64,000 nt of DNA from positions 1 through 64,000 of the IMG/VR virus record IMGVR_UViG_3300029324_000094, one strand, 5' to 3'. Made by a program: the position numbers and the translations under genes. The notes beneath the pieces were generated by a model, which had not been told where the DNA came from, did no database searches, and saw only the letters and a list, made by a program, of their open reading frames with translations. Below are positions 18,568-61,134 of the stretch, piece by piece. This stretch comes from a virus. Position 1 is the first letter of the stretch; every line of letters starts with the position of its first letter.

Positions 18568-19221
18568 CTAAAAATAAATAACTGTGCATCTGCAATTTAC
18601 CACTTGATTCAGACTAGGATTCATCGACATGTCTTTTGGGAATAACATCCATGAATCCCCAACATGAAAAGCCTGTCCTATCGGGATATATTTGCCATTA
18701 ATATCTCGATGATCCCCCCTTGTCACCTCATCCATAATCGACTCCCATCGTTTCATGGTTCGCCCGGAATTAACGGCCTCCATATATCTTGTATGATTGG
18801 TAGCTGTATTGACTTCATTTTCAGCCATATATTTTGCCCTGTCTAATGAGTAGTAATAAGGCTGATCCTTGTGTTTCCTAGTGCTATCAATAACATCATA
18901 GGAAAAACCTTTGATATAGGTAGAAAGATATTTGTCAACGTCCGTATATTTCCGTAAAGTTTCCAAATAAGAATCTTCAATTTGCTTACGAACAATCTCG
19001 TAATGGATTTTCCCTGCCTGAGTCATTGTAAATAATAAGGTCATAGTTACAATGAAATTATCTTCAAGCTCTTGTGCAATCTTGATTCTTTCGGCCTTGT
19101 CATCTTCCGTAAGATTCATTTCTCCGAAATACTGTTCAAAAGGCATACTTCGTTTATTTTGGACAAGAGCGTTTAATTCATCAAATCTAAGATTCTTGAA
19201 CATCGTCACCACCGCCATCAT
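18568..19221 (-). CDS. Head morphogenesis protein (Mu F / SPP1 gp7-like)
   Basis: 217 aa; C-terminal NVVNCRCTVIY is the typical Phage_Mu_F motif. Confidence 0.75.
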   Translation of the reverse strand: MMAVVTMFKNLRFDELNALVQNKRSMPFEQYFGEMNLTEDDKAERIKIAQELEDNFIVTMTLLFTMTQAGKIHYEIVRKQIEDSYLETLRKYTDVDKYLSTYIKGFSYDVIDSTRKHKDQPYYYSLDRAKYMAENEVNTATNHTRYMEAVNSGRTMKRWESIMDEVTRGDHRDINGKYIPIGQAFHVGDSWMLFPKDMSMNPSLNQVVNCRCTVIYF

Positions 19222-20779
19222 TGGTACTCATTCCGTCTAAAATCGGTGAATTGCCCGTTTGATCGGACAGGTCAGCCATCTCCCTTTTCTGTGGTTGCTG
19301 CTGAGTATCTTTCTTTATAAGCGATTCCTGATACTGTTCAATCGTTTTTCGACTGTCAGCCCACGCCTGTGCCACATCCGGGAATAAATCAACCTGCTCC
19401 ATAGCGACACGTCCATGCACTCCGGCATTAATCATTGCAACCATTGAATTAACCTTTGTGGCAAGATCATATGTCTTATTTCTGATAAACTTCGGTTTCA
19501 CATCAGAAAATTTCAAATTCCGCAACGGACTGTCATATGGTATATCGTTTGTTTTTTGAATTGCAATCAGTTCAAGTTCTACAATCTCCGCTTTTCCTCG
19601 GCGTAAAATCTGTTCTTCCTTGCAAGCACTGTTTTCAGCAGCACTCCAACCAGAAGACATATTCATTGCAGATCCAGTAGAGCCGCCACCGGGATCTGTC
19701 TGAATTGGGACGTAAGCCTTTTGTAAAATCATGTTACGCTTGCTTACGATATTTTCTTGCACGCCCTGATAATCAAATGTGCTTGAAACAGCCTTTAACA
19801 TTGGCGTTCCACCATTCCCACTCTGCGGTGCGATAATCCATTGCCCTCCAATAGGAGACTGAGTTTTACCATCACTATCTTTCGGCAAGTCGAATCCTGT
19901 ACCAAAAAATACTTCCTGAGTTGTCTGTGCTACGCTGTTGGCGAAATCAGACACCTCTACGTTCAGTGCGTTCATATCAGAAATCTGCCGTTCAAAGCAT
20001 CCCATTCTGTCCGTTGCCCGGTTAAACTCCACAATCGGGATCTTGCCGAACGGATTTGCCTCTCCGCTTCTCCCCATAAATGACCACGGATTTTCAGGCT
20101 TATTTCCATTTATAATTTCTCGCATATCTTTAATCTCATAGCGAGTATCCGGCGTGAACACTGTATAGTACACCGTTCCGTCCTTCGTCCTGCGGAAAGT
20201 AACACCAGCAATCTTTTCTTGTAACGCTGAATTTCTGTAGATGCAGAACGTAAACAAGGGATTTAGCGTTGCAAGATCAAATGGAGCTAAACCATCATAA
20301 ACCTTTTTGATATCAACGAACTGATAACCAATTCCGTTAATTTCAACAAATCTGCCAAGCTCCTGATCTTTTGAAAAAGCATATTCTGAATCATTCAGCT
20401 CATTCAACATGGAAATCGCATCATCCTGTGAATCATTCTGTTTATCTGTAGATTTGCTCAAATCCTTATTTCCACGTTGCACATAGGTGATTGGCTGCCC
20501 CCAAACATATCCGAGCTTAAACTCGGTAATTTGGTTTGCGAGATTATCTTGTACTCTAATATCAACGTCCTTACGGATCGTTTTCTTTCTCACAAGTGGC
20601 TGAATACCTTTTTCGTACCGCATCAAGGTAACCATATTGTTTGCATTTTCCATGTGGACAAGCATCGCTTCTTCCAACACCTGAAAGATATTTTCTTTTG
20701 TAATCTTTTCCACATCCGTATAAATCCGGCGTCTGCCAGTTAATTCAGGATATACATATGCTTTATTGTCCTCGGACAC
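19187..20779 (-). CDS. Portal protein (SPP1 gp6-like)
   Basis: 530 aa, directly downstream of the terminase region and upstream of MuF. Confidence 0.8.
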   Translation of the reverse strand: MSEDNKAYVYPELTGRRRIYTDVEKITKENIFQVLEEAMLVHMENANNMVTLMRYEKGIQPLVRKKTIRKDVDIRVQDNLANQITEFKLGYVWGQPITYVQRGNKDLSKSTDKQNDSQDDAISMLNELNDSEYAFSKDQELGRFVEINGIGYQFVDIKKVYDGLAPFDLATLNPLFTFCIYRNSALQEKIAGVTFRRTKDGTVYYTVFTPDTRYEIKDMREIINGNKPENPWSFMGRSGEANPFGKIPIVEFNRATDRMGCFERQISDMNALNVEVSDFANSVAQTTQEVFFGTGFDLPKDSDGKTQSPIGGQWIIAPQSGNGGTPMLKAVSSTFDYQGVQENIVSKRNMILQKAYVPIQTDPGGGSTGSAMNMSSGWSAAENSACKEEQILRRGKAEIVELELIAIQKTNDIPYDSPLRNLKFSDVKPKFIRNKTYDLATKVNSMVAMINAGVHGRVAMEQVDLFPDVAQAWADSRKTIEQYQESLIKKDTQQQPQKREMADLSDQTGNSPILDGMSTNDGGGDDVQES

Positions 20780-21368: not shown

Positions 21369-24080
21369 TTAAATTGGACTTTGTATAATTTGTGCCGCCC
21401 TAACGAAACCAGTTGTAACAAATAATGCAAAACTCGCCAATCCGTCCGGCACATCATCGTGTGGATTCTTCCCACGCACTGAATAACTCAACAGAAATCC
21501 CATCATTCTTCCGTAATCATCTTTCGGTTTATAATGTTCACGATCCCTAAAGAGGACGTGCTTCTTTACCCAATCTGCATTGACAATAATCTTTGTTTCC
21601 TTATTAGATTCCGTGTACTTTGTGGTTATGTTGCAGGCACCGCCTTTTTGCTCAACAAGCTTACTTACTTCAAGTGCTACACGGTCCCCACCATTGTTTG
21701 ACTCGAACTGACACTGTTGCATTTTAGTATTAACTATCAAATCCGATGTCCGCTCATACTGGATTCCGTAATTGGAATTATCATCACAAACACAGTCTGT
21801 AAGATAAAAGTCGTTTCCGTACTGCAACATACAAGGCAAAAACAAATAGTCAGTACCTTTATTTTTCGTATCGCAGATGCCCCATACAGCGTCAGGCTCA
21901 GTAACCGGCAACGTAATGAATCTCCGCAATTCTTCATCTGTATACAGGAGTCCTTCACGTTCGATAGGTTCATTCTTATACAGACACTTGTAGGTGATCT
22001 CATCCATTGTGAGTTCCTGGTCATGGAAAAACTCAACGCTGAAACCATTGTACTTGTAATCGAAATTCGACTCCCCAGTGATAGGGTCTATGTCCGGTAT
22101 GGCAATAAATCTTGCCCTGTCATTTCCATCGTAAATATCAATTAGTCGCCCAATGACATCATGCACGGACCATCTCGTAGCAATATGGATTTCTTTGCAG
22201 CCATCCATTTTTCTCTGTTTGGCGTCAGTACCGTAGATTCTCCAAAGCTTGTCCAGAATATTTTTATTCAATGCTTCTTCGATACCACCAATCAAATCAT
22301 CACAATACAGATATCTATTTGCACGGACTTTACCGGCATTCTTACTTCCAACAGATGTACACTGGATATTTGAGAACGGTTTGTATTTATTGAAATTTAT
22401 GGTTTCTCTCTTGGCATTTGTGCTATGAAATTTCACGTCTGGGAAAATCTCTTGCCAGCAATATTCATCTGAGTTCGTTGTAATATCCATAACCCCGTCA
22501 TAGAACATTCTGGTAATATCTCCACTGTGTGAGAAAAACAAACTGAAATCATCCGGGTGTCTTCCGATTATCCATGAACAGAAAAACTTTTCAAGAGTGG
22601 TGTTATGCGTAATGATATAATCATCTGTAATATATAAATGACTTTCATCATCAATGTAAATGCATTGGCACTCTTCTTCACCGATGTATTCTATCTCTGA
22701 TATGAATCTCTTCATAACTTTTCTTTTTGGAGTATATTTTTCAGCTTTTCTTGTCAGAGAAAATATACTATCCATGCCAGAGGTAAATTGTATGATAATC
22801 TCAAAATAATCATTGCATTGTTTATACTTACCATTTTTCTTATATCCGGCTTTACGTTTGTTTTTACTTGCATAACCTCCAAGAGAATGAACAAGTTCGC
22901 ATACATCATTTGCAAGATGTTCTGAAATTGTAGCGTATGTACAATAATATTTTGAAGCAGATCCGTCTGTATCCATAAGACCTCTCAAAAGCCACAATCT
23001 CTGCTCATAACTTCCATATAGATAATCTTTCGGTATGAATTTATCTATACTCTTCTTTCCGAATAATCCGAGCCTATCAAGTTCTTTTCTGACTAAGCTT
23101 CCAACTTTTGCATTATCGCCTTCATGTCCACTAACAAAATATGTACATCTCTCTTTATATTTCAAGCTATATCCATCAGGTAAAAAACTGTCAAATCTAT
23201 CCAACAATTCTTTGTCTACAGAGCTTAGCAAAACACTACCACCAGTTAATCCGCCATCTCCGATAAGTGCACCGACAACATACGGGTGCAGGGAAAATTC
23301 TTTTTTCTCAAAACAATCGATCTTAGGAACATAATCTATTGAATAATTTTTTCTCTTTCCATTCTCCAACTTGTAATTTTTAAGCATTTCAGACAGCTCT
23401 ACTGTCCTGTATTTTTCGCTACCATCTTTATTCTTTCGTCTGCGATCATCTCTTGTTTGTACCGTCCATAAGTGATTATCCGAACATCTCGTCTTGGAAC
23501 CATCATCGAAGGTCACCTCATACATCTTTCGCTTCTTTCTTGGTGAGATACTAAGCACGGTTGCTACTTTTCCTGTTCCAGAAATTACCTTTGTACCTAC
23601 TTTGACGTCCCCCATTTGTATAAATCCATTTGGCGTCAATATCTTTGAATATAAAGGTTGACACTTCTGCGTTCCCGGTGGCATGGAAATTGAAAGGATG
23701 TCAAGTTTGTCATCCTCAAGATCCTGCATTGCCTGAATCAATCCATGCTTATTCAGTTGTTTCCTTTTCGGGGAGTAGAAGCGATCCTGTTCTAATCGTT
23801 TTCGCTCAAGATAAAGTAGATAGCTGTCAAACAAATGAGGTGCCTCAAACTTTAAAGCTTGCCAGTACAAGGTTTCAAACCGCACATCCTGATTCTTTAT
23901 CAGTAATCTCTGAGCCGATAACTTAACCGCCTTTGAGAGTTTCAGGCAGTATTGCAGATAGTCATGATTATCCTCATACATATTCAGGCACAACTGCATA
24001 ATATTATCCCATGTACTATATTTATTTGTATCCTGCATTTTCAATGCGTTTGCTAATCTCTTATACTCTCTAAACTCCAT
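21369..24080 (-). CDS. terL: Terminase large subunit interrupted by an intein
   Basis: Likely start MEFREYKRL behind a GGGAGA RBS; the ORF-table start at 24125 has no good RBS. ATPase P-loop PPGTQK|..|TTLEKFF is split by a 354-aa Cys1...HN/T intein. C-terminal nuclease domain contains HDDVPD. Confidence 0.85.
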   Translation of the reverse strand: MEFREYKRLANALKMQDTNKYSTWDNIMQLCLNMYEDNHDYLQYCLKLSKAVKLSAQRLLIKNQDVRFETLYWQALKFEAPHLFDSYLLYLERKRLEQDRFYSPKRKQLNKHGLIQAMQDLEDDKLDILSISMPPGTQKCQPLYSKILTPNGFIQMGDVKVGTKVISGTGKVATVLSISPRKKRKMYEVTFDDGSKTRCSDNHLWTVQTRDDRRRKNKDGSEKYRTVELSEMLKNYKLENGKRKNYSIDYVPKIDCFEKKEFSLHPYVVGALIGDGGLTGGSVLLSSVDKELLDRFDSFLPDGYSLKYKERCTYFVSGHEGDNAKVGSLVRKELDRLGLFGKKSIDKFIPKDYLYGSYEQRLWLLRGLMDTDGSASKYYCTYATISEHLANDVCELVHSLGGYASKNKRKAGYKKNGKYKQCNDYFEIIIQFTSGMDSIFSLTRKAEKYTPKRKVMKRFISEIEYIGEEECQCIYIDDESHLYITDDYIITHNTTLEKFFCSWIIGRHPDDFSLFFSHSGDITRMFYDGVMDITTNSDEYCWQEIFPDVKFHSTNAKRETINFNKYKPFSNIQCTSVGSKNAGKVRANRYLYCDDLIGGIEEALNKNILDKLWRIYGTDAKQRKMDGCKEIHIATRWSVHDVIGRLIDIYDGNDRARFIAIPDIDPITGESNFDYKYNGFSVEFFHDQELTMDEITYKCLYKNEPIEREGLLYTDEELRRFITLPVTEPDAVWGICDTKNKGTDYLFLPCMLQYGNDFYLTDCVCDDNSNYGIQYERTSDLIVNTKMQQCQFESNNGGDRVALEVSKLVEQKGGACNITTKYTESNKETKIIVNADWVKKHVLFRDREHYKPKDDYGRMMGFLLSYSVRGKNPHDDVPDGLASFALFVTTGFVRAAQIIQSPI
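22602..23663 (-). other. Intein with LAGLIDADG homing-endonuclease domain inside terL
   Basis: Starts CQPLYSKILTPNG (block A) and ends YIITHN followed by +1 Thr. Carries LAGLIDADG-like motifs ALIGDGGL and LLRGLMDTDGS. Confidence 0.8.
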
Positions 24081-24143
24081 GTTTCTCCCTAAATCAAAAA
24101 AGAGCCAATATCTGCAATTTCTCACAAATATCAGCTCTGGCTC

Positions 24144-27423: not shown

Positions 27424-28285
27424 CTATTTTCCATCAGTTACTACCGTGTCTGCACCTTGAACAGTTACCCATCCAAATTTGTTTCTTGCCTCAGCTTCTT
27501 TCATCCGAATCAGCTCATCCGTAATCGAAGCACTGATGATTTTATTTGACTCAGCTTCAGCCTGAGCTTTCGTAATCTGAATCTGTGCATCTGTTTCAGC
27601 CTGAATCTTCTCAGTCTCTTTCTGAACCTTGATTTTTTCCTGTTCAGCTTCTGCTTGTTGCTTTTCTTGTAATGCAGTCACGCGATTATCAATAGCTTCT
27701 TTCAGTTTCTTGTCTGGGTGAACATCAATGATTGATGCATCCAGAACTTCAATTCCGTACTTATCGGAAAATTCGCTATTCAGGTAATCAGTCAGCTCAG
27801 AATTGAGTTTTGATCTGTTTCCAGAGTAAATATCCATCATGGAATAATTCGTTGTAATCTCTGAAATTTTCGATTTCAGAACAGGCTTCACACGGCTTTC
27901 GATGATATCGTCACCGTCCATACCTTTGAACTTCTTGTATGTATCTACAAGCGTATCCGGGTTGTATCGATATGACATCTAAAAACTGATTGCAATACTT
28001 GCATCATCAGAAGTAGCAACCTTAAAAGAGTCATCTCCCTTGCTGCCCTCTCTCTTGTCTTTCGACATTACCAAGATTTCATTACTTGTTGAGAACTCTT
28101 TTACTTTTTTCATCGGACCTACAAAATTCAATCCCGGTGAAAGCGTTTCTTTCTGTACTCCATCCCTATACGTGTAGACTATACCAGTCTGTCCAGTCTT
28201 AATCAATTTGCACGAACTGACCGTGAACGCTGCACCGATAACAGCTGCAGCCACTACTACCGCGACTATTCCTTTTTTTCTTCAT
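27424..28285 (-). pseudogene. SPFH / band-7 (HflK/prohibitin-like) gene disrupted by an A7-tract frameshift near the start and an in-frame TAG at 27979-27981
   Basis: ATG at 28285 followed by an AAAAAAA run. The SPFH frame is reached only via a -1 shift, and the ORF table had to use a GTG start at 28254. The SPFH domain (GIVYTYRDGV...PGLNFVGP) continues in the same frame across TAG|ATG into ORF 27424..27978. Confidence 0.5.
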
Positions 28286-29754: not shown

Positions 29755-30360
29755 TTAAAATAAGTCAACCGGATCATCTGTATCCGCATCACCTAGAAGT
29801 GCTTTGGGATCTGCTCCGATGTCGGTAGCGATTTGTTCAATACTCTTTTTCGCTCCAGTAATCTGTTCATGCTCTACTGCTTTTGTCTCCGCCATTCCGT
29901 AAGCAGCTTTTGCAATGAATATTTTGTTCGCATCTGTCCCCTTGGAATTTCCCAAATTGTCGACCAAAAAACCTTTGCAAATATTCAACCATTTTTTGAC
30001 CGTGTCGGAGTGTTCAGCTGTCCGATATCTCCCATTAAGCCAAGTATTAAACGTTGTTCTGTCGATATCTACTAAAAAGCTAAATGCTTCCAACGTAGGA
30101 TTGACACTGTATTTACTGCATAGTCTTACATACACACTAAATATATTATCTAATGCTTTTATGTCTGCATTATCTGGCTTAGATATACGGTCTGAAATAT
30201 AAAATAACATATCCACAAAGTTGTCTTTTACGATCTTTTTACTTTCCTGATCCACATGCTCTAACTCTAATTCATTTTTGATATATTCATCAGCGTAATA
30301 ATTAATGTCATGTCTATATATCTCTATTCCAGCAGATGTAATATCTGTATTGTCTTTCAT
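29755..30360 (-). CDS. Hypothetical protein with internal HTH-like segment
   Basis: 201 aa; LEAFSFLVDIDRTTFNTWLNG is helix-turn-helix-like. A terminase small subunit role is possible but unsupported. Confidence 0.35.
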   Translation of the reverse strand: MKDNTDITSAGIEIYRHDINYYADEYIKNELELEHVDQESKKIVKDNFVDMLFYISDRISKPDNADIKALDNIFSVYVRLCSKYSVNPTLEAFSFLVDIDRTTFNTWLNGRYRTAEHSDTVKKWLNICKGFLVDNLGNSKGTDANKIFIAKAAYGMAETKAVEHEQITGAKKSIEQIATDIGADPKALLGDADTDDPVDLF

Positions 30361-30596: not shown

Positions 30597-30689
30597 ATAT
30601 ATATTCTATTCTTTTCTTCTCTATTCTTCTCTTATCTTCTCTGGGTTGCCAATTGGTATACCAACCGGTTACAAACCGGTATACCAAGC
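30597..30689. repeat. Ori-like repeat block, non-coding copy: pyrimidine tract plus palindromes CCAATTGG, GGTATACC and AACCGGTT with AACCGGT iterons 11 bp apart
   Basis: About 85% identical to 49659..49733 (inside the replisome-organiser gene) in the same orientation. Preceded by the 8-bp inverted repeat TTGTGCAT/ATGCACAA at 30564..30590. Confidence 0.6.
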
Positions 30690-31099
30690 ATATTTCACTC
30701 TCTGGAAGTGCAAAAAAGACAGCCGTTTTTTAGCTGCCTTTTCCATTGATTTATTTTATCCAATCTGCTATAATCAATTTAGCTCGAGAGCGGTGGCAAG
30801 TTCCGCCCTCTCTTGTGTGTCTGAGCTGTTGTTATACGGCTCTTTTTTTAATTGTCTTCGATGCCCTTTTGAGTGTCATCAATAAGGCGGTCAACCATCT
30901 TTTCAGCCTTATCATATTCTTTGTTTTTCAATGCTTCTTTCAAGTCTTTTAAATCCTGTAAAAGTCTTCTCAAGTAACTTTTAAATACGCTCATGTCTTC
31001 GTTCATGTCTCTCCTTTCTCCAGCTTGCCACTGGTAACTTGTAAGCTTGTTCCTTACAAGTATTATTATACCACTATTTTTAGTGCTGTCAATACTTTT

Positions 31100-31381
31100 T
31101 TAATAATATTTAACTTTTTCCTCGTCTGTCGGAACGACCTCTAATATATCGCCGGGTTGGCATTTTAGCAGCACGCACAGAGTGTTAAGCGTAGTCGTGT
31201 TGATATTCTCGCCCCTCCTTATCTTGGTCATTGTAGCCTCGCTGATCCATTTGTTTTTGCGTATCCTAGTACTCGTGTACCCTCTTTCCGACAGCTCTCT
31301 AAGCACATCTATCTTGTATTTAATCATGTCTCGCACTCTCCTTTTTACCCTAGATTGTATCACCTCTATATTATATATCAT
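31100..31381 (-). CDS. XRE-family HTH transcriptional regulator
   Basis: 93 aa with an HTH_26/Cro-C1-like helix (ISEATMTKIRRGENINTTTLNTLCVLL). Confidence 0.7.
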   Translation of the reverse strand: MIYNIEVIQSRVKRRVRDMIKYKIDVLRELSERGYTSTRIRKNKWISEATMTKIRRGENINTTTLNTLCVLLKCQPGDILEVVPTDEEKVKYY

Positions 31382-31398: not shown

Positions 31399-31431
31399 GA
31401 AAAAGTTTTTTAAAATACACGCTTTTTAGTG

Positions 31432-31460
31432 TTGACATACACTATTTTTAGTGGTATATT
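31432..31460 (+). promoter_or_regulatory. Near-consensus sigma-70 promoter (TTGACA, 17 bp, TATATT) driving the plus-strand small-gene cassette
   Basis: ttgacatacactatttttagtggtatatt. The 5' leader carries two direct repeats AACGAGGACAGAAA (31472..31485 and 31504..31517). Confidence 0.55.
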
Positions 31461-31527
31461 ATAACCATAGCAACGAGGACAGAAAAAATCCCGCCCCGGA
31501 GGTAACGAGGACAGAAAGAGGTAGAAA

Positions 31528-31743
31528 ATGAAAAAGTATTTTTTGAAAAAATACTATAGTTTTAAATTCCAGCTTAACCGGCTGGAAAGAAAAGAATTAA
31601 AAAAGGAACTGGGAGAACTCGAGTTCTCCGGCTGTACTTTTGCAGCCACAGACAGAATCAAATCCGTACTCTATGAATTAGGGTACAGAGTCGAAACGAG
31701 AGGACGCTTAGCGTTCTCGGAAAAATTCTTTGAGGAGGTGTAG
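31528..31743 (+). CDS. Small basic hypothetical protein (71 aa), cassette gene 1
   Basis: ORF behind an AGAGG RBS. Confidence 0.45.
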   Translation: MKKYFLKKYYSFKFQLNRLERKELKKELGELEFSGCTFAATDRIKSVLYELGYRVETRGRLAFSEKFFEEV

Positions 31744-31746
31744 AAA

Positions 31747-31923
31747 ATGAAAAAAGAATATAAAAAATTTAAAAAGATAAAAAGAGCGGTTGACCTACTA
31801 CTACTCGTTGCAGCAGTGGCGGTTGCAAGCTCAGCTGTGACGAGATCTTACATGATCCGCACGGCACAGCCAGATCGGGCGTGCAATATCGCCTGGTCAG
31901 GTGAAATACATGAATACAGATAA
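31747..31923 (+). CDS. Small peptide (58 aa) with Lys-rich N-terminus and one hydrophobic segment; signal or anchor-like
   Basis: MKKEYKKFKKIKRAVDLLLLVAAVAVASSAVTRSY...; below the ORF-table size cutoff. Confidence 0.4.
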   Translation: MKKEYKKFKKIKRAVDLLLLVAAVAVASSAVTRSYMIRTAQPDRACNIAWSGEIHEYR

Positions 31924-31934
31924 GGAGAAAGGCC

Positions 31935-32225
31935 ATGAAATACTTTTTTGAAGAAATAAAAACAAAAAAGGTTGTGGAGCTGGAAAGAGACAGCATCACA
32001 GCCGGGCAAATGAAAGAAATCAGCCGTGACGGCTTCCGGCTGATCGGAATATGCGGTGGGGAAGAAATCACCCAAACAGGGTGCTACTGTACCGCCATCG
32101 GTCAGCAGCACTTTGACGGGCTGACCCTCGACTATCTGGTGGCAGGCTACACCCTGACTGCTGCCACTGAATCTGTCAGAGCATTTGAAAAAGACGGTCG
32201 GACGGTGACCGTTGAAAGAATTTAA
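31935..32225 (+). CDS. Hypothetical protein (96 aa)
   Basis: ORF behind an AAGGAGAAAGG RBS. Confidence 0.45.
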   Translation: MKYFFEEIKTKKVVELERDSITAGQMKEISRDGFRLIGICGGEEITQTGCYCTAIGQQHFDGLTLDYLVAGYTLTAATESVRAFEKDGRTVTVERI

Positions 32226-32237
32226 GGAGGAAACAAA

Positions 32238-32432
32238 ATGGAAGCATATATAAAAATATTAGTCAAAAACTTTGATTTTGAAAGCCCAGAGGATTTCCGG
32301 GCAGAATTAAGAAAAAACCGGAGCGAGGTTATAGAATGGCTCCGGTGGAGAGCAGACGGCGGCAAGATGAAAAACGAAATTACAGCCGCCGGACTTGCAC
32401 AAGCTTGCAAAGAGCTTTTAAATCGCATTTAG
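32238..32432 (+). CDS. Hypothetical protein (64 aa)
   Basis: ORF behind an AGGAGG RBS. Confidence 0.45.
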   Translation: MEAYIKILVKNFDFESPEDFRAELRKNRSEVIEWLRWRADGGKMKNEITAAGLAQACKELLNRI

Positions 32433-32510
32433 TCGAAACGCCTCCGGGCGTCTACAGGAACCGCCCCACCTGTACCGATGAGACAGGGCAACGAAAGGAG
32501 ATAGAACACA

Positions 32511-32941
32511 TGAAAAATTATATAACAATTGTGGAGAAAACAAGTAAAAACCTTAGAAGCCATGTGATAATTCACAACGGTTTTCATTATTTCGCTGAAA
32601 TGGACACCGCGGAGCAATTAGAAAGATTTTCTAAAATGCTCGGATTCACTTACAAGCTGGAAGAAGTGAGCAAATCAGAACAGCATGGAGAATATAGACG
32701 TTTTAGCATGTCGCACACTATAGAAGACCGATGCGGCGGCGGATTTTGGAAGCTTTCAGACATTCCAGAGAATGCAAAGCCGTTTAAAGCTCTTTCAAAT
32801 GGATCTATCGTTAATTGCTTTTTCCTAAATGATGGCGAAACAATACACATATATAGACCAAACCCAAATGCAAAAGAAGTATATAAACCGCTCGCTCTTA
32901 AAGAACGCATTAAATTTGTGAAAAATAATTATTTATGTTAA
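32511..32941 (+). CDS. Hypothetical protein (143 aa)
   Basis: ATG at 32511 behind an AAAGGAGA RBS. Preceded by the GC hairpin ACGCC-TCCG-GGCGT at about 32445..32460. Confidence 0.45.
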
Positions 32942-33013
32942 CCACCGCCGACAGCGTACCGGGGAGCATTGCCCCGGAGCGGTTTTATAAAAAATATGAA
33001 AGGAGGTACAGCC

Positions 33014-33205
33014 ATGAAAAAAATCATATTGACCGATACGGAAGCACGCCGGTTGTGTCAGTTAATCCAGTTAACAGCCGGATGCAGACAAGAAAGCCTG
33101 CAGAGCTGGCAGAAAAGCGATCTCGATTCTGCCAGTGAAGTAGTGCAGCTACTCGAAGACATAGAAAGAGTAGCCGAAAAGATTAGAAAGGAATTAGCCG
33201 GATAA
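33014..33205 (+). CDS. Hypothetical helical protein (63 aa)
   Basis: ATG behind an AAAGGAGG RBS. The longer ORF-table start at 32969 is less likely. Confidence 0.45.
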   Translation: MKKIILTDTEARRLCQLIQLTAGCRQESLQSWQKSDLDSASEVVQLLEDIERVAEKIRKELAG

Positions 33206-33218
33206 TTTCCGGCTTTTT
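33196..33218 (+). terminator. Rho-independent terminator ending the plus-strand cassette
   Basis: AGCCGGA-taatt-TCCGGCT followed by TTTTT. Confidence 0.55.
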
Positions 33219-33256
33219 CCAGTACAAAAAACGGACGGGAGGGGACGAAAACGCAA

Positions 33257-33400
33257 ATGAAAATCACAGAAAAAGAATGGCTGAACCTGTGCCAGTCAGT
33301 CAAAAACGAAAAGTGTGACTGTATACACTGGGACGATGCCCCGGTCACATCTCAATCCAGCGGAGTTGTTGCAGCATATTCCGCACCGGGCAGAAGTTAA
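33257..33400 (+). CDS. Small Cys-containing ORF (47 aa)
   Basis: MKITEKEWLNLCQSVKNEKCDCIHW... behind a GGGAGGGGA RBS. Confidence 0.3.
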   Translation: MKITEKEWLNLCQSVKNEKCDCIHWDDAPVTSQSSGVVAAYSAPGRS

Positions 33401-33453
33401 TATTTTGTAAAAATAAAGCCAACACCGACTTTTGGGGATTGGCTTATTAGTGT

Positions 33454-33885
33454 TTACTCGTATTCTTTTCGTATCTGTTCCATACGGCTGCTTATTGCGT
33501 TCCGGACGGATTCCGGCAGATTCTGAAAACGTGGAACAATTCCAAAGAAGTCAGACATAACCAGAGCGGAAAATGCATTTGCATCTACTTCCAGCGATTG
33601 CAGATTGTACTGTTCGACGCTAATTTTATCGCTTGCTTGGTATCCTTTCAGGTCTGCACCGTTGGCGATCTGATAAGAATGCCGCAGCTCGTGAGAGATC
33701 GCAAAGAACAGCTCAGGCGATACGGTCACATCATTCCGGACCAATACCGCATCCGGTGTTAATGCTGCTATTTGTGTACTGGTCCGCATTCGATCAGATG
33801 GAACGAATTTAATAGCTGGTACAGATATATCCAATATATTGCAGACCTCCCGAGCGAATTTGATGCAGATTTGCTTTTTATCCAT
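33454..33885 (-). CDS. HExxH metallopeptidase-like protein (ImmA/IrrE-like?)
   Basis: 143 aa with the motif AISHELRHSYQ. Confidence 0.4.
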   Translation of the reverse strand: MDKKQICIKFAREVCNILDISVPAIKFVPSDRMRTSTQIAALTPDAVLVRNDVTVSPELFFAISHELRHSYQIANGADLKGYQASDKISVEQYNLQSLEVDANAFSALVMSDFFGIVPRFQNLPESVRNAISSRMEQIRKEYE

Positions 33886-41168: not shown

Positions 41169-41564
41169 TTATTCTTTGTACTTCTGCAAAATCTCTGTAA
41201 TTGCTTTCATGTGATCTGCTGCTTCCATCAAATCTTCATCACCAATCGAATCAAGACCGTATTTCCTATTAAAATCCTCAAACGCATATCTTCCATCTCT
41301 AAATTGTTCAAACATGATAGCTAATTCATTTTCTTTTTCCGAATTTTCATCACACTCATAAAAAATTTCATTTTTGTCATGTTCTCCAAACTTATCAGTA
41401 AAGAATTTTGTCCGCTTTGGAGTGATTCTTGTGATTTTTGCCGGAGTAATTAACTGATGCCGGAATGATGAACGCCATCCACAACTCACGTCTCTCGCAA
41501 CACCAACAATATCCCCGACTTTCAATGTGTCTTTGTCTATCTCTTTTAATTTAATGTTCATCAA
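41169..41564 (-). CDS. Hypothetical protein
   Basis: ORF only. Confidence 0.35.
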   Translation of the reverse strand: MMNIKLKEIDKDTLKVGDIVGVARDVSCGWRSSFRHQLITPAKITRITPKRTKFFTDKFGEHDKNEIFYECDENSEKENELAIMFEQFRDGRYAFEDFNRKYGLDSIGDEDLMEAADHMKAITEILQKYKE

Positions 41565-44061
41565 TTCTCATCCTTTCCGCAATCGCTTCGATCACATTTA
41601 CAGTAACTCCATTTCCGGCTTGCTTGTACAACTGACTGTCAGAATTTACAAACGCAGCTTTTTCAAAATAATCATCCGTCCACCCTTGCAGTCTGAAACA
41701 TTCTTTCGGAGTCAATCGCCGGATTGCTATGTAGCATTGATATTTTTCATACCAGACAGCATATACGGTCAGTTCTTCCGACACTTGTACGAAAATCCCT
41801 TGATTGCAACTGGTATCAAGCGTATTTGCTATGTCATGCCCTACTCTACCTCTTCTCGTTTTACTTCCTGGTACAGCCAAATTTACGCTATCAACACCAA
41901 CTCTGCATTCCGAATATCCTTGTTTTGTCGCTTCTGTTACTTTTACTGCAAGCTGATTATCTTTATTGACGGTGGACAATGTATTCACTACTCCATCATC
42001 TCTGACTTCGCTTTCGAGGAATTCATGTCTGGAGATTTTGATGTTTCCAGCTTCATAATCTTTGCGGATTTCTTTTCCGTAATCACTACGAACATTCCGT
42101 AGTACTCCGATCGGCTCTATTCCTACTCCATGTCTATCCTGTCCCGTAAGCGTAAACATTGGTTCTCCGTCTTCCTTGAATCTCCGTCCGTTCTGACGTT
42201 TTTCTGCCCTATCTGGTGTTAATACCGGAATAGCAATTCCGCTATCTTGCCCTGCGTGGTTCGATGCTCCTTTGTGATATCTTGCCTTCAGGCATCGTGC
42301 CTGCTCCGTCATCTTCGAGCCTTCATGACACAAGTCAATGAAGCATGGCAAGGCACCATGTTGCCTTCCGCCGCCTTGACAAGTGCTTAATGCTTCTGTG
42401 ATTCCATCTTGTGCAAATACCTGCGTATTTCTTCTGTAACCGTCCCTGTGACCTATTATTTGAATACTATTTTCTCCGTCTGCTCTTTCGACAGGAAATA
42501 CTTTTGCGGTACTTCTCCCTCTAAGATGTCCGATAATGAAACACCTTTCTCTGTTTTGTGGGACTCCGAAATCTTTGGAGTTGAGTACTTGCCATTCTGC
42601 ATCATACCCTGCTTGTTCCATTTCAATGAGCAGTCTGGCGAAATCCCATCCTCCATTAACACTAAGCAGATTCTTAACGTTCTCAATGAAAAGGTAAGTG
42701 GGTTTATCTTCTTCTTTGAGCTGTCCGATAAGGTACATAACTCTGAAAAACAAGCTTGAACGGTTTCCTTGAAATCCAAGTTGCTTTCCGGCAACTGAGA
42801 TATCTTGGCAATTGTGGACAATTGCTCCGTTTGCAACATATGAGTTGTCTTCTTCAACACTGATGTTATACACTGTTCCAAAATCATCAGATTCTGTTGG
42901 CTGATACAATTCTCTGCAAACATATCTTGCACGATAATGTCCTTTAACTGATTTACTAGAGATTCGGAATGTATATGTATCTCTTTGTCGGCATTCCCTT
43001 CCTTGGATAACACATTTTTCATCTCTTCTAGTGTAGTAAACAGCTGGAACAGATTTTCCAAGTCGCTGTGCAATGATGCACATGCCAAGAACGAGTGCTG
43101 CGCTGGTTGATGTTGCTTCTTCTCGATCACTTCTTCCATCACCGGACATATATCCATCGAAGAAGTATTTTGCTTTCTCTCGTGGCAAACACAATGCTTC
43201 TCTTGGAACTCGTTTTCCATGTGCGTATTTTCCGAACTTTTCAAGGTATTCGTATAATTGGTTATTGCACACATGATACTTTCCACAAGTTCGTTCTTTT
43301 GTGTAAGTTCCATGTAGTTTCGCTTCTCGCAATCGCTGTTCGAATTCTGCCCTCTTATCATCGCTGATTGCGAACACGATTCTTCCTCCACTTGGTCTGT
43401 CTTTTCTTTCAACTCTCCACCCATCAGCAAGATAACGTCCGATAATCCACCACATTTCCTTGCTGTATCCATCGGATTCTGCATCAGGCAAAACCATTGT
43501 GGAATACCAACTGTCATCAAGTTGTTCCACTTTTTTGAATTCCATTGGCTGATCTGGTTTAGTGACATAATACGGATGCTCTGCCGTGGTTCTTGTTGGC
43601 AATATTCCGAATCCATTGACATCCCAGAGTCTTGCTCCGTCCCTGTGCATTGTTGCTGTGACTTTTCTCCATCTTCCTTTGTGCGTAAGGACTTTATCTC
43701 CGACAGATACATCTTCAATTGGGATATATCCTTTTTCTGTAAGAATATAAGTTCCTTTGGCAAAACATGGGAATCCGAAACACCAACAGTCTGCTTTCGG
43801 AATGTCTCCGGTATACACTCGTCTAATGTCATTTGCGTACCATTCTCCGTTTCTGTATTCATCTTTTAAAATCTCCTTTTGTCGCTTTTTCAGTGGTAAT
43901 TCTTCCAGTACTTTTCTCTGCTCATCTGTCAGAAGATGCATGGATATGTAGCTTGCAGTCGCAAATTTATCAAATTCACAAAAACCAACACACTCATGTC
44001 CAGCAAGTTCCATTCCCTTTCGGAAACCACCTATTCCGGCGAAAAAATCTATAAATTTCAC
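41551..44061 (-). CDS. dcm: DNA cytosine-5 methyltransferase (Dcm) interrupted by an intein
   Basis: Motif I FAGIGGF. Motif IV GFPC|Q is split by a 319-aa intein. Also ENV, QNRER, and motifs IX/X (QAGNGVTVNV). Confidence 0.85.
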   Translation of the reverse strand: MKFIDFFAGIGGFRKGMELAGHECVGFCEFDKFATASYISMHLLTDEQRKVLEELPLKKRQKEILKDEYRNGEWYANDIRRVYTGDIPKADCWCFGFPCFAKGTYILTEKGYIPIEDVSVGDKVLTHKGRWRKVTATMHRDGARLWDVNGFGILPTRTTAEHPYYVTKPDQPMEFKKVEQLDDSWYSTMVLPDAESDGYSKEMWWIIGRYLADGWRVERKDRPSGGRIVFAISDDKRAEFEQRLREAKLHGTYTKERTCGKYHVCNNQLYEYLEKFGKYAHGKRVPREALCLPREKAKYFFDGYMSGDGRSDREEATSTSAALVLGMCIIAQRLGKSVPAVYYTRRDEKCVIQGRECRQRDTYTFRISSKSVKGHYRARYVCRELYQPTESDDFGTVYNISVEEDNSYVANGAIVHNCQDISVAGKQLGFQGNRSSLFFRVMYLIGQLKEEDKPTYLFIENVKNLLSVNGGWDFARLLIEMEQAGYDAEWQVLNSKDFGVPQNRERCFIIGHLRGRSTAKVFPVERADGENSIQIIGHRDGYRRNTQVFAQDGITEALSTCQGGGRQHGALPCFIDLCHEGSKMTEQARCLKARYHKGASNHAGQDSGIAIPVLTPDRAEKRQNGRRFKEDGEPMFTLTGQDRHGVGIEPIGVLRNVRSDYGKEIRKDYEAGNIKISRHEFLESEVRDDGVVNTLSTVNKDNQLAVKVTEATKQGYSECRVGVDSVNLAVPGSKTRRGRVGHDIANTLDTSCNQGIFVQVSEELTVYAVWYEKYQCYIAIRRLTPKECFRLQGWTDDYFEKAAFVNSDSQLYKQAGNGVTVNVIEAIAERMRIDEH
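42811..43767 (-). other. Intein with LAGLIDADG homing endonuclease inside dcm
   Basis: Starts CFAKGTYILTEKG and ends NGAIVHN followed by +1 Cys. Carries IIGRYLADGW and FFDGYMSGDG. Confidence 0.8.
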
Positions 44062-58209: not shown

Positions 58210-58998
58210 CTACGCAACCTGTTCAATCACCGGAACATAGCCATGCTTCTTCAATTCTTCATATAAGAAGAGTCTGCCTTTCTGTGTCCATTCAGTCTGC
58301 ATCGTAACGTCTGCTCTGCCATCAGCTCTTGTGATGTTGATTGTTTTGCTATGGACATATCCATTATTCTGATGTTTGGAATACAGGACCCATTGACCGC
58401 CGACTTTGTACTGAATCTTTAATTCTTTTAGAATCTGATTCATTTTCCTTCCGCTAAGTCCGTAGTCCTTGGCAATCTGTGTGATAGCTACCAGTGACTT
58501 CGATTGAAGAATCTTGTCTACATAATTTGCTTTCGGCTGTAGCTCGGAAATCAATTTCTGATTTTCAACAGCCTGTTCACCAAGAAACTTGCATTGGTCT
58601 TTCAGAGAGTCTATAGTCTTTTTCGCTTCAATCACCGCAAGTGCAAGTAACTCTTCGCCTTGTGGTGCAAGCTGATAACTTCCATTCTTTCTGATTGCCG
58701 GAAGAACTTCGGATGTAACCCAGTGTTTAAATCTCTTTGCTGATTCCAGCTTACTTCCAAAGATTAATGCGTATAAGCCAGATTCGTTGATTACTGTTAC
58801 TTCCCTTCTCTGACCTGCGTACTCGATTTGGGTACTCAGCTTATCCTCTTCACTTACATGAGTCGGAACTGCATTTTTAGGATTCGCATAACCAAGTGCT
58901 GTTGCCACATCTTTTCCTACAAAATAGGTTTCATTATCAATAGCTACTGTTCGGATATCACCGAACTCTTCTGAATTAAAAATATGTAATTCGTTCAT
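58210..58998 (-). CDS. Antirepressor (Bro-N plus KilA-C domains)
   Basis: N-terminal FGDIRTVAIDNETYFVGKDVATALGY (Bro-N). C-terminal KilAC-like ORF6C region. Confidence 0.7.
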   Translation of the reverse strand: MNELHIFNSEEFGDIRTVAIDNETYFVGKDVATALGYANPKNAVPTHVSEEDKLSTQIEYAGQRREVTVINESGLYALIFGSKLESAKRFKHWVTSEVLPAIRKNGSYQLAPQGEELLALAVIEAKKTIDSLKDQCKFLGEQAVENQKLISELQPKANYVDKILQSKSLVAITQIAKDYGLSGRKMNQILKELKIQYKVGGQWVLYSKHQNNGYVHSKTINITRADGRADVTMQTEWTQKGRLFLYEELKKHGYVPVIEQVA

Positions 58999-60759: not shown

Positions 60760-61134
60760 ATGTATGAAATATTTGAGAGATTATTAAAAGAAAAAGGGTT
60801 AAAAGCAGCGGATGTTGTAAGAGGGACTGGGATAAAGTCCCCCGTGTTTTCCGAATGGAAAAAAGGAAAAAGCAACCCAAATACTGAAAAAATGCTTAAA
60901 ATAGCAAATTTTCTTAATGTAACTGTTGAATACCTTATGACAGGGGAAGACCCAAAAGCCGACTCTCCCTCTCAAGGCTACTACATTGATGAAGAGACAG
61001 CTCGTACAGCACAGGAAATCTACAGCAATGATAAGATTCTCTTTGACGTATACAAAACCGCAGATAAAGACAGATTGATAGCGTACGCCAAAAAGTTATC
61101 TGAATTGCGAAAATTAGAGGAAGGTGAGGAATGA
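60760..61134 (+). CDS. cI-like XRE-family repressor
   Basis: N-terminal HTH (KAADVVRGTGIKSPVFSEWKKG) and a C-terminal extension. Confidence 0.7.
   Translation: MYEIFERLLKEKGLKAADVVRGTGIKSPVFSEWKKGKSNPNTEKMLKIANFLNVTVEYLMTGEDPKADSPSQGYYIDEETARTAQEIYSNDKILFDVYKTADKDRLIAYAKKLSELRKLEEGEE

What the first reader, a model, noticed from the sequence alone, without database searches (positions are those of the whole stretch)
31432..33400. Plus-strand cassette of seven small genes under a consensus promoter inside the minus-strand lytic region
A near-perfect sigma-70 promoter (TTGACA, 17 bp, TATATT) with a 5' leader carrying two direct 14-nt repeats (AACGAGGACAGAAA). It drives small ORFs of 71, 58, 96, 64, 143, 63 and 47 aa. 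The 58-aa product is signal- or anchor-like. There is an internal GC hairpin and a clean terminator. The cassette is divergent from an XRE regulator that has its own consensus-like promoter, and flanked at the far end by a convergent HExxH protein. None of the products matched a family I recognise. Their orientation matches the lysogeny-expressed strand (cI, integrase). This is the best candidate here for an undescribed prophage accessory system such as a toxin-antitoxin, anti-defence or superinfection-exclusion module.
Basis: partly seen in the sequence, partly recalled or inferred. Interest (0 to 1): 0.7.

Follow-up and report, generated by a model that had tools for sequence, protein, structure and literature searches.

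The report
Repressor-gated array of swappable small phage genes
A gut-bacterial prophage carries a strongly promoted string of small unknown genes, gated by a neighbouring exchangeable repressor; the layout matches the regulated counter-defence gene sets of other phages, but what the genes do is untested.

Summary
A consensus promoter (31432-31460) drives ORFs of 71, 58, 96, 64, 143, 63 and 47 aa on the strand opposite the lytic genes, and none matches Pfam, PHROGs, NCBIfam, PADLOC or PDB. Three corrections apply.

1. The 47-aa ORF is a frameshifted remnant of a 93-aa gene.
2. The strongest terminator follows gene 6.
3. The genes are not one fixed system. Relatives swap them gene by gene, at least 15 alternative families appear on the + side (43 ORF families in the whole variable region), and only the 143-aa protein is widespread.

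The conserved part is the control module. The 75-aa XRE gene sits between two outward consensus promoters, and each carries the same 14-nt palindrome in its core. In relatives the regulator and its sites are replaced together, by other XREs or an unrelated RHH-like protein. The match is strict in 19 distinct contigs, and at least five specificities exist.

The closest known kind is an Aca-type repressor controlling neighbouring anti-defence operons. I therefore read this as a repressor-gated array of early accessory genes, probably counter-defence. The cargo function is inferred, not shown. It is a new variant of a known kind, of moderate interest.

The parts
30712..30744 (-). Intrinsic terminator that ends the minus-side unit (P(-) to g52)
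   Evidence: Fold z = -3.4, 0 of 200 shuffles fold as well. 30724 is a recurrent homology breakpoint.
30848..31006 (-). g52, a 52-aa hydrophilic ORF; the cargo of the minus-side promoter in this phage
   Evidence: ORF list. No family match. Relatives carry other small genes in this position: 78, 72 and 98 aa, a GIY-YIG protein, and others.
31065..31092 (-). P(-): a perfect TTGACA-16-TATAAT promoter with TG, immediately downstream of the regulator gene and facing terS
   Evidence: 12/12 match. Equivalent perfect promoters are visible in type B and type C relatives (sequence read).
31072..31085 (.). Operator O3, CACTATTTTTAGTG, filling the P(-) spacer
   Evidence: (family D5).
31100..31327 (-). 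Regulator, 75-aa XRE/HTH_26 protein (specificity type A)
   Evidence: HTH_26 E = 5.9e-14. Closest solved protein is 3tyr, a small XRE-family regulator, at 7e-6. Not a paralogue of the prophage cI-like gene.
31354..31381 (-). Probable promoter of the regulator itself (ATGATA-16-TACAAT with TG), weaker than the two gated promoters
   Evidence: 9/12 match. It has no overlap with an operator.
31418..31431 (.). Operator O1, CACGCTTTTTAGTG, abutting the -35 of P(+)
   Evidence: Its centre is 22 bp from the centre of O2.
31432..31460 (+). P(+): TTGACA-17-TATATT with TG, the cassette promoter
   Evidence: 11/12 match.
31440..31453 (.). Operator O2, CACTATTTTTAGTG, filling the P(+) spacer
31461..31527 (+). 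Unstructured leader with two 14-nt direct repeats (31472-31485 and 31504-31517); probably a recombination joint
   Evidence: Fold z = +0.6. Repeats confirmed. Only copy 2 is present where g1 is not the first gene, in L040.
31528..31743 (+). g1, 71 aa, basic; usually the first gene of the array; confined to this lineage
   Evidence: Only 3 clusters, all >= 87% identical, among 5.8e9 proteins. The exact sequence is indexed in 535 blocks of the collection.
31747..31923 (+). g2, 58 aa, signal- or anchor-like peptide with a conserved C-terminal tail (invariant C46, W50, H55, Y57)
   Evidence: Alignment A3. Precise presence/absence at 31743/31934. Paralogues at 44-52% identity in other arrays.
31935..32225 (+). 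g3, 96 aa, confined to this lineage
   Evidence: 7 clusters, all >= 74% identical. AlphaFold2 model unusable, pLDDT 55.
32238..32432 (+). g4, 64 aa, fast-evolving; found wherever g5 is >= 79% identical among the close relatives mapped
   Evidence: 8 synonymous against 41 non-synonymous codon differences.
32510..32941 (+). g5, 143 aa; the only widespread member; confident predicted fold with no known relative
32959..32977 (+). GC hairpin CCGGGGAGCATTGCCCCGG, a 3' feature that travels with g5
   Evidence: Unique in the window, with 0 expected by chance. It follows g5 in all loci where g5 is >= 79% identical.
33014..33205 (+). g6, 63 aa, predicted helical; usually the penultimate gene of the array; about 30% identical homologues in other arrays
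   Evidence: family F3.
33196..33214 (+). Main intrinsic terminator of the cassette, overlapping the g6 stop codon
   Evidence: Fold z = -3.5, 0 of 200 shuffles fold as well.
33257..33400 (+). g7, 47-aa remnant of a 93/123-aa gene
   Evidence: 128-nt deletion relative to L041, causing a frameshift. Family F7.
33417..33445 (.). Hairpin shared by the convergent g7 and HExxH genes; a weaker, bidirectional terminator
   Evidence: Fold z = -2.0.
33454..33885 (-). Flanking 143-aa HELRH...EVDANAF protein, a putative metallopeptidase; last gene of the early operon and not part of the array
   Evidence: Weak matches only: DUF6782 at 0.002, capP at 0.016. Truncated or absent in L001, L039, L040 and L044.

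Best explanation
This is a repressor-gated, hypervariable array of small accessory genes.

How the control works: a stand-alone small regulator gene (here a 75-aa XRE) lies between two outward-facing, near-perfect sigma-70 promoters. P(+) drives g1 to g6 plus the g7 remnant. P(-) drives g52, towards terS. Each promoter has the regulator's 14-nt palindrome in its -35/-10 spacer, and P(+) has a second site abutting the -35.

Inferred mechanism:
1. On entry of naked phage DNA, host RNA polymerase fires both promoters at once.
2. The regulator, made from its own weaker promoter, accumulates, binds the sites (probably as a dimer) and shuts both promoters off.
3. It keeps them off in the lysogen.

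Inferred cargo function: the cargo genes act individually, not as one machine. They are most likely inhibitors of host functions, that is, counter-defence or host-takeover proteins.

Inferred reason for regulator diversity: a resident prophage with the same regulator type would silence the array of an incoming relative, which would select for exchange of the regulator-operator module.

What is shown and what is inferred: the anatomy, the co-variation of regulator with sites, and the mosaic cargo are shown by computation. Repression, timing and cargo function are inferred.
For: Regulation:
- The palindrome occurs only at 31072, 31418 and 31440 in 64 kb, each time in or next to a consensus promoter.
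- In relatives the leader and g1 stay 97-100% identical, while everything between the two -10 hexamers is replaced. Breakpoints fall at 31095-31102 and 31438/31454.
- Each regulator type comes with its own repeat on both sides: A with CACnnTTTTTAGTG (3 sites), B with ACATnTATTTCnTG (3-4 sites; only one found in L040), C with ATTTGTGCYTAAT (5 sites). There is no cross-occurrence in 19 distinct contigs.
- Two further variants show the same design: L008 and L005. L040, a 91% variant of type B, has about seven such repeats.
- Type C is unrelated to XRE proteins.
- The type B regulator is 100% identical in phages whose cargo differs.

Cargo:
- Gene-by-gene exchange at gene starts.
- 43 ORF families in the variable region, mostly 35-143 aa. 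Of the 20 representatives scanned, none reaches a Pfam threshold except one regulator (HTH_26) and one LPD29 protein at 39 bits.
- No defence-system match in PADLOC.
- g5 fusion relatives sit in early or establishment regions of mobile elements, next to SSB, RadC, DpnD-PcfM and ChlI.

Precedent:
- Aca regulators, HTH or RHH, repress their own and neighbouring anti-defence operons through repeats in the promoters. LPD29 genes occur in Aca-regulated operons (PMC13551039; PMC12282945).
Against: - No cargo protein resembles any validated anti-defence protein in the libraries available.
- The regulators do not match any solved Aca protein.
- The regulator is not in the cargo operon, unlike classical acr-aca loci, and no operator overlaps its own putative promoter.
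- g2 looks exported or membrane-anchored, which fits exclusion or signalling better than cytoplasmic inhibition.
- The cassette points the same way as cI and the recombinase, so expression in the lysogen is not excluded.
- There are no expression or binding data.
- Many of the compared loci are close relatives, so the locus counts are not independent events.
Confidence: 0.5

Rival explanations
1. Lysogen-expressed moron cassette. The genes are made from the prophage and protect the lysogen (superinfection exclusion or defence) or otherwise alter the host. The regulator only tunes their level, or turns them off during lytic growth.
For: - It has its own promoter and terminators and lies antisense to the lytic genes.
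- It has the same orientation as the cI-like gene and the recombinase.
- g2 is a signal- or anchor-like peptide with a conserved external tail, like many exclusion factors.
- Variable accessory regions inside lytic operons carry sieA in P22-like phages (PMC8022706).
Against: - Repressor sites occupy the promoter core.
- The same regulator gates a second cargo set that faces the lytic direction.
- The cargo is far smaller than known defence proteins, and PADLOC finds nothing.
- g5 relatives are co-oriented with early genes elsewhere.
Confidence: 0.22
2. Secondary immunity region of the P22 immI type. The gated cargo includes a small antirepressor that inactivates the main cI-like repressor, and the local regulator plays the role of Mnt.
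For: - A divergent small repressor with a strong, operator-bearing promoter, inside the lytic region, in a very variable spot, as described for immI (PMC8022706).
- Immunity-like exchange of regulator plus operators.
- g1 is nearly invariant and usually first.
Against: - No ANT, KilAC or Bro domain in the cargo. A Bro-N/KilAC antirepressor already sits next to the cI region at 58210-58998.
- No cargo gene is universal. g1 is absent from the L004-L008 groups, which keep the architecture.
Confidence: 0.1
3. Toxin-antitoxin or abortive-infection module made of two or more of the small genes, with the XRE protein as antitoxin or regulator.
For: Small adjacent genes next to an XRE protein. Among the close relatives mapped, g4 is present wherever g5 is >= 79% identical, and g6 with the g7 family usually co-occur.
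Against: - No toxin or antitoxin family in Pfam, NCBIfam or PADLOC.
- g5 occurs widely without g4.
- g7 is broken here.
- The XRE is replaced by unrelated regulators while the cargo is unchanged.
Confidence: 0.03
4. No coherent function. The region is a recombination hotspot that collects selfish or decaying small ORFs, and the promoter-operator design serves only to keep a strong promoter harmless.
For: - Remnant g7.
- GIY-YIG endonucleases and IS elements in the same region of relatives.
- g4 has few synonymous changes.
- Most cargo is confined to this lineage.
Against: - The g5 family is conserved across 233 clusters at 50% identity, with invariant motifs and a confident fold.
- About half of the codon differences in g5 and g6 are synonymous.
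- The control architecture is maintained through at least five regulator replacements.
Confidence: 0.1

Closest known systems
Aca-regulated anti-CRISPR / anti-defence operons, especially multi-operon control by Aca14 (RHH) and bidirectional control by Aca11 and Aca13 (PMC13551039, PMC12282945)
   Same: - A small HTH or RHH regulator.
- Cognate repeats inside the core of strong promoters.
- One regulator controlling two neighbouring operons.
- Cargo of small, mostly unannotated, rapidly exchanged genes.
- An LPD29 protein among the cargo of one relative.
   Different: - The regulator is a stand-alone gene between two outward promoters, not the last gene of the cargo operon.
- No visible autoregulatory site.
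- No sequence relation to solved Aca proteins.
- No cargo gene is a known Acr or anti-defence protein.
- The host range is gut Clostridia (Lachnospiraceae- or Ruminococcus-type MAGs).
P22 immI secondary immunity region (mnt - Pant - arc - ant)
   Same: - A divergent small repressor facing a strong promoter.
- Located inside the lytic gene block but transcribed on its own.
- A very variable region among relatives (PMC8022706).
   Different: - No antirepressor domain in the cargo.
- A second gated promoter on the other side of the regulator.
- The cargo is an array of many exchangeable genes.
Immunity-region exchange in lambdoid phages (imm-lambda, imm434, imm21); from my own knowledge, not checked here
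   Same: Repressor and operators are exchanged together as one module between otherwise near-identical phages, giving distinct specificities.
   Different: Here the module does not control the lysis-lysogeny genes. A separate cI-like region lies at 58-61 kb. Some replacements are by a non-homologous protein fold.
Morons (independent promoter-terminator units inserted between conserved phage genes); from my own knowledge
   Same: A self-contained transcription unit with its own promoter and terminator, between conserved terS-side and early-operon genes, with slightly different composition (GC 0.42-0.48 against 0.36-0.39).
   Different: It is multi-gene, internally mosaic and tightly gated by a dedicated repressor. 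Morons are defined by expression from the prophage, which is untested here.
Anti-defence islands in leading regions of conjugative plasmids (PMC11541004)
   Same: Clusters of small early-expressed genes next to ssb-type genes. Relatives of g5 fused to DUF4121 lie in such SSB/RadC/DpnD-PcfM neighbourhoods.
   Different: This is a phage, not a conjugative element. Neither DUF4121 nor PF13497 is mentioned in that paper's supplementary files.

Membership tests
acr-aca / Aca-regulated anti-defence operon | A small HTH or RHH transcriptional regulator encoded at the locus | tested here: met
   HTH_26 at E = 5.9e-14. Type B is also HTH_26, at 5.6e-7. The RHH assignment for type C rests only on its sequence pattern (beta-strand, helix, G-x-S, helix), with no database support.
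acr-aca / Aca-regulated anti-defence operon | Repeats specific to the regulator overlap the core promoter of the cargo operon or operons | tested here: met
   O2 fills the P(+) spacer, O1 abuts its -35 and O3 fills the P(-) spacer. Regulator type and motif co-vary strictly. Actual binding is not testable with these tools.
acr-aca / Aca-regulated anti-defence operon | The regulator belongs to a named Aca family (Aca1-14) | tested here: inconclusive
   No solved Aca protein appears among the PDB sequence matches. The best is 3tyr, a small XRE-family regulator. No Aca profile library was available.
acr-aca / Aca-regulated anti-defence operon | The aca gene is co-transcribed with the cargo, giving autoregulation | tested here: not met
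   The regulator is on the opposite strand with its own putative promoter (31354-31381), and no operator overlaps that promoter.
acr-aca / Aca-regulated anti-defence operon | At least one cargo gene is a validated or homologous Acr or anti-defence protein | tested here: not met
   No match in Pfam, PHROGs or NCBIfam for any cargo, or in PDB by sequence for g1, g3, g4, g5 and g6. No fold match for g5. The only lead is LPD29 in one relative's cargo. dbAPIS and Acr-specific libraries could not be searched.
P22 immI-type secondary immunity region | A repressor divergent from a strong promoter, inside the lytic region | tested here: met
P22 immI-type secondary immunity region | The cargo encodes an antirepressor | tested here: not met
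   No ANT, KilAC or Bro domain in g1-g7. Such a protein is encoded elsewhere, at 58210-58998. A novel small antirepressor cannot be excluded.
Type II toxin-antitoxin module | A conserved, co-inherited toxin-antitoxin gene pair with recognisable families | tested here: not met
   No toxin or antitoxin families. No pair is conserved beyond the lineage.
Moron | An autonomous promoter-to-terminator unit inserted between conserved phage genes | tested here: met
   Promoter, terminators, conserved flanks with sharp breakpoints.
Moron | Expressed from the repressed prophage | not testable with these tools
   This needs RNA-seq of a lysogen. The operator-filled promoter argues against constitutive expression.
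Integron-like gene-cassette array | An adjacent integron integrase and attC-type recombination sites flanking each cassette | tested here: not met
   No integrase next to the array. No repeat family shared between the cassette junctions except RBS-like joints (family D3). The GC hairpin belongs to g5 only.

The most novel reading that the evidence does not exclude
The regulator-operator unit is a portable 'immunity cassette' for a phage's counter-defence arsenal. Resident prophages of this very common gut phage lineage would silence, in trans, the early anti-defence burst of incoming relatives that carry the same regulator type. That would be a form of superinfection immunity acting through the invader's own gating switch, and it would drive the observed turnover of HTH and RHH-like regulators with their sites. 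Under this reading, the roughly 40 cargo families, including the g5 fold that has no known relative, would be a largely untapped set of inhibitors of Clostridia defence systems.
Probability: 0.2. Interest if true: 0.75.

Novelty: new variant of a known kind. Interest (0 to 1): 0.5.

Why it matters
The phage lineage is abundant: the exact g1 sequence is indexed in 535 blocks of the collection, the portal's nearest deposited relatives are uncultured human-faecal phages, and no cultured relative exists.

If the array is a counter-defence locus, it offers about 40 candidate inhibitor families for defence systems of gut Clostridia, where very few are known. It also provides a natural set of orthogonal repressor-operator pairs with matched strong promoters. 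The stand-alone, two-sided switch would extend the Aca concept beyond regulators that sit inside the cargo operon. The exchange of regulators between otherwise identical phages would make trans-silencing between related phages directly testable.

Tried and rejected
- **One co-functioning seven-gene system:** rejected because of the mosaic content and the broken g7.
- **Riboswitch or attenuator in the leader:** rejected. The leader is unstructured and has no Rfam match.
- **The 14-nt leader repeats as regulatory sites:** unlikely. Copy 2 travels with g1, so a recombination scar is more likely.
- **Integron-like array:** rejected, with no integrase and no attC-like sites.
- **Sequence searches against PDB** for g1, g3, g4, g5, g6, the HExxH protein and both regulator types gave no informative match.
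- **Pfam scan of all 73 g5 homologues** gave no consistent weak signal.
- **DUF4121** has no literature in the library and is not mentioned in the supplements of the leading-region paper.
- **Supplements of the Aca paper** were not held, so the regulators could not be compared with Aca14.
- **blastn of the region** against deposited phages found nothing.
- **The regulator as a paralogue of the prophage cI:** rejected.
Full report
**1. What is there**

The window is a siphovirus-like prophage read mainly on the minus strand.
- Below 30.4 kb lie late genes: an intein-bearing large terminase (21369-24125), an SPP1-type portal (19187-20779) and a capsid gene.
- Above 34 kb lie early and replication genes: YopX, DUF1653, a C5 methylase with an intein, a DnaB-like helicase, RecT and an SMC-like ATPase.
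- At the far end lie a Bro-N/KilAC antirepressor, a cI-like HTH gene (60760-61134, +), DUF3800 and a large serine recombinase on the + strand that runs off the window.
- A host MiaB-like gene lies at the other end.
- The nearest deposited phages are uncultured human-faecal contigs at 41% portal identity.
- Relatives of g5 occur in Lachnospiraceae, Ruminococcus and other Clostridia MAGs.

The finding sits at the early/late junction.

**2. Check of the observation**

Every literal element is present:
- P(+) TTGACA-17-TATATT with a TG extension, 11/12.
- Two exact AACGAGGACAGAAA copies at 31472 and 31504.
- ORFs of 71, 58, 96, 64, 143, 63 and 47 aa.
- The divergent XRE gene (HTH_26, 5.9e-14) and the convergent HELRH protein.

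GC and AT skews invert exactly across 31.5-33.3 kb. Relatives keep the reading frames. About half of the differing codons are synonymous in g5 and g6, and a third in g2 and g3. g4 has only 8 of 49 (a crude count).

Corrections:
- g7 is a remnant. A 128-nt deletion relative to the 93-aa gene of L041 shifts the frame.
- The best terminator follows g6 (z = -3.5). The hairpin after g7 is weaker (z = -2.0).
- The leader is unstructured (z = +0.6) and the region after g4 is unexceptional.
- There is no Rfam match in 29.5-35 kb.

**3. The control module, the main new result**

A 14-nt palindrome, CACTATTTTTAGTG, occurs only three times in 64 kb.
- O2 (31440-31453) fills the spacer of P(+).
- O1 (31418-31431, two mismatches) abuts its -35, 22 bp from O2 centre to centre.
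This is P(-), a perfect TTGACA-16-TATAAT (31092-31065) just downstream of the XRE stop codon.
- P(-) drives a 52-aa ORF and ends at its own terminator (z = -3.4).

So the regulator gene lies between two outward, near-perfect promoters that share its presumptive binding site. The regulator's own promoter is weaker (9/12) and carries no site.

**4. Co-variation across relatives**

I fetched 49 loci.
- In close relatives, the leader and g1 (97-100% identical) and the terS side are conserved. The stretch between the two -10 hexamers is replaced, with breakpoints at 31095-31102 and 31438/31454.
- Three regulator types each carry their own repeat on both sides:

| Type | Regulator | Repeat | Sites |
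|---|---|---|---|
| A | XRE-A | CACnnTTTTTAGTG | 3 |
| B | XRE-B, 44% identical to A | ACATnTATTTCnTG | 3-4 (only 1 found in L040) |
| C | Unrelated 69-aa protein | ATTTGTGCYTAAT, direct repeats | 5 |

- I read type C as ribbon-helix-helix from its pattern only. It has no database support.
- The association is strict in 19 distinct contigs, with no cross-occurrence.
- Two more divergent regulators (L008, L005) have their own repeats in the same mirror-image design. In L008, TTGACA-[TCACTAATATTAGTGA]-TATGAT faces g5 directly. L040, a 91% variant of type B, has about seven TACATnnTATTTnnTGTA-like repeats.
- The type B regulator is 100% identical in phages whose cargo differs (L001 against L004/L007).

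Many loci are close relatives, so the independent evidence is the number of specificities (at least five) and the non-homologous replacement, not the locus count. Binding and repression are inferred. Sites inside the -35/-10 spacer imply occlusion of RNA polymerase.

**5. The cargo is mosaic**

Arrays seen in otherwise syntenic phages include:
- 71-58-96-64-143-63-47 (window; L038 is 100% identical over 5.3 kb)
- 71-96-58-135-67-63-93
- 71-58-111-112-63-93
- 58-339-179-48-71-58

Further points:
- Breakpoints fall at gene starts: 31743/31934 for g2, and 32244/33014 for g4+g5. Gene starts share AGGAGGTnTAGAAAATGAAAAA-like joints (family D3).
- Only copy 2 of the 14-nt leader repeat is present when g1 is not first. 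The pair is therefore best read as a recombination scar.
- The minus side of the regulator is equally variable: 52 aa; 78-72-98 aa; GIY-YIG endonucleases.
- Clustering gave 43 ORF families in the region. Of the 20 representatives scanned, none passes a Pfam threshold except one regulator (HTH_26) and a 339-aa LPD29 protein (39 bits) with a sub-threshold J-domain match.
- g1 and g3 are confined to this lineage: 3 and 7 clusters among 5.8e9 proteins.
- The g2 family has a basic N-terminus, a hydrophobic core, a conserved SS-x-A/V-TR junction and a conserved tail with invariant C, W, H and Y. It is either an exported peptide or a membrane anchor.

**6. g5**

g5 is the only widespread member, with more than 226 clusters at 90% identity and 233 at 50%. 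Motifs such as SNGS and RPNPN are invariant.
- Its AlphaFold2 model is very confident (pLDDT 95.3, pTM 0.87).
- In distant phages it lies among co-oriented early genes, without the other cassette members.
- Five of ten long relatives are fusions of an N-terminal DUF4121 with a C-terminal g5 domain.
- Those fusions sit in early or establishment-type regions next to SSB, RadC, DpnD-PcfM and ChlI, or behind a repressor-ANT pair followed by more than 40 small ORFs.
- A GC hairpin (32959-32977) travels with g5.

**7. Interpretation**

The design closely matches recent descriptions of Aca regulators. It has a small dedicated repressor, sites in the cores of very strong promoters, two gated operons, and tiny unannotated cargo that turns over quickly.
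- Aca proteins repress strong acr promoters through repeats in the promoter.
- Aca11 and Aca13 act bidirectionally (PMC12282945).
- Most Aca families are predicted to control neighbouring operons.
- An RHH protein, Aca14, represses two anti-defence operons.
- LPD29 genes occur in Aca-regulated operons (PMC13551039).

I therefore favour an early-burst, then-silenced array of counter-defence or host-takeover genes. My confidence is about 0.8 for the regulatory logic, about 0.4-0.5 for the cargo function and 0.5 overall.

It fails two membership features of classical acr-aca loci: the regulator is not in the operon, and no cargo is a known anti-defence protein. A third is unresolved: whether the regulator belongs to a named Aca family. 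So it works like such a locus but cannot be filed as a member.

Rivals:
- A lysogen-expressed moron or exclusion cassette (0.22). This is favoured by the orientation and by g2.
- A P22 immI-like antirepressor region (0.10; PMC8022706).
- A hotspot of functionless ORFs (0.10).
- A toxin-antitoxin module (0.03).

**8. Verdict**

The finding is better described as an exchangeable two-sided repressor switch gating hypervariable small-gene arrays in a prevalent, uncultured gut phage lineage. It is a new variant of a known kind and of moderate interest. Its main value is as a source of candidate inhibitors and of orthogonal repressor-operator pairs. It also offers a testable case of trans-silencing between related phages.

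Noticed in passing
window 30746-30850 (+): A promoter-like site (TTGATT-17-TATAAT with TG, 10/12) is followed by a two-hairpin unit of about 70 nt ending in a strong terminator (z = -3.8). It has no Rfam match. It lies fully antisense to the 3' UTR of the g52 transcript, so it is a candidate small antisense RNA that travels with g52 in L039 and L041.
   Followed up: partly
window 30600-30690: Upstream of the putative small terminase gene (29755-30360, minus strand) lie CT-rich repeats of about 10 nt (30602-30650) and two copies of a GGTATACCAA-containing 21-mer (30644-30664 and 30667-30687). The region is conserved in all relatives up to 30724. It could be a late-promoter or activator site, or a packaging site.
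   Followed up: no
window 21369-24125 (-) and 41551-44061 (-): Two intein-bearing genes: the 918-aa terminase-sized ORF carries LAGLIDADG and homing-endonuclease domains, and the C5 cytosine methylase carries Hint and intein-splicing domains.
   Followed up: no
window 33454-33885 (-): The 143-aa HELRH...EVDANAF protein looks like a small ImmA/IrrE-type metallopeptidase. The database matches are weak (DUF6782 at 0.002, capP at 0.016). It ends the early operon, is 80-92% conserved where intact, and is truncated or missing in L001, L039, L040 and L044.
   Followed up: partly
L037, L043, L045 (5082-5484, -); L041 (1217-2407 and 10005-11766): Relatives carry GIY-YIG homing endonuclease genes on the minus side of the regulator. 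One relative also has a DDE_3 transposase gene and an IS605 OrfB / Cas12f1-like TNB gene next to a resolvase gene nearby. These are plausible drivers of the mosaicism.
   Followed up: no
L042 1-83; L037, L038, L039 and L044 at about 11.6-12.2 kb; L036, L043 and L045 at about 12.1 kb: Other parts of related phages encode Tad2-like, Lar restriction-alleviation and PAPS-reductase proteins. These are families linked to counter-defence, so the lineage invests in anti-defence elsewhere too.
   Followed up: no
L040 4239-5258 (+): A 339-aa cargo gene with an LPD29 domain (39 bits) and a sub-threshold J-domain match (HPD motif) heads an alternative array. It is the only cargo family with a Pfam assignment.
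   Followed up: partly
L047 10001-10909; L048 10001-11017: Fusion proteins of an N-terminal DUF4121 with a C-terminal g5 domain occur in mobile-element regions. L047 has Rep3, a HepT/MNT pair, two SSB genes, RadC and ChlI. L048 has DpnD-PcfM, SSB and ChlI after more than 40 small ORFs. The DUF4121 profile match stops at about position 147 of 264, so the g5 domain may replace, or be a distant version of, its C-terminal half.
   Followed up: partly
window 27424-27978 (-) and 61479-62219 (+): An SPFH/Band_7 protein is encoded between the packaging genes, and a DUF3800 protein lies next to the cI-like repressor. Both are accessory genes of unclear role in this prophage.
   Followed up: no
L004, L005, L007, L008: In several more distant phages g5 is adjacent to a family of about 115-122 aa (MKDYTKFMNYA...IDRKTQDD...), in either order. 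This is a possible functional partner, and it is absent from the window.
   Followed up: no
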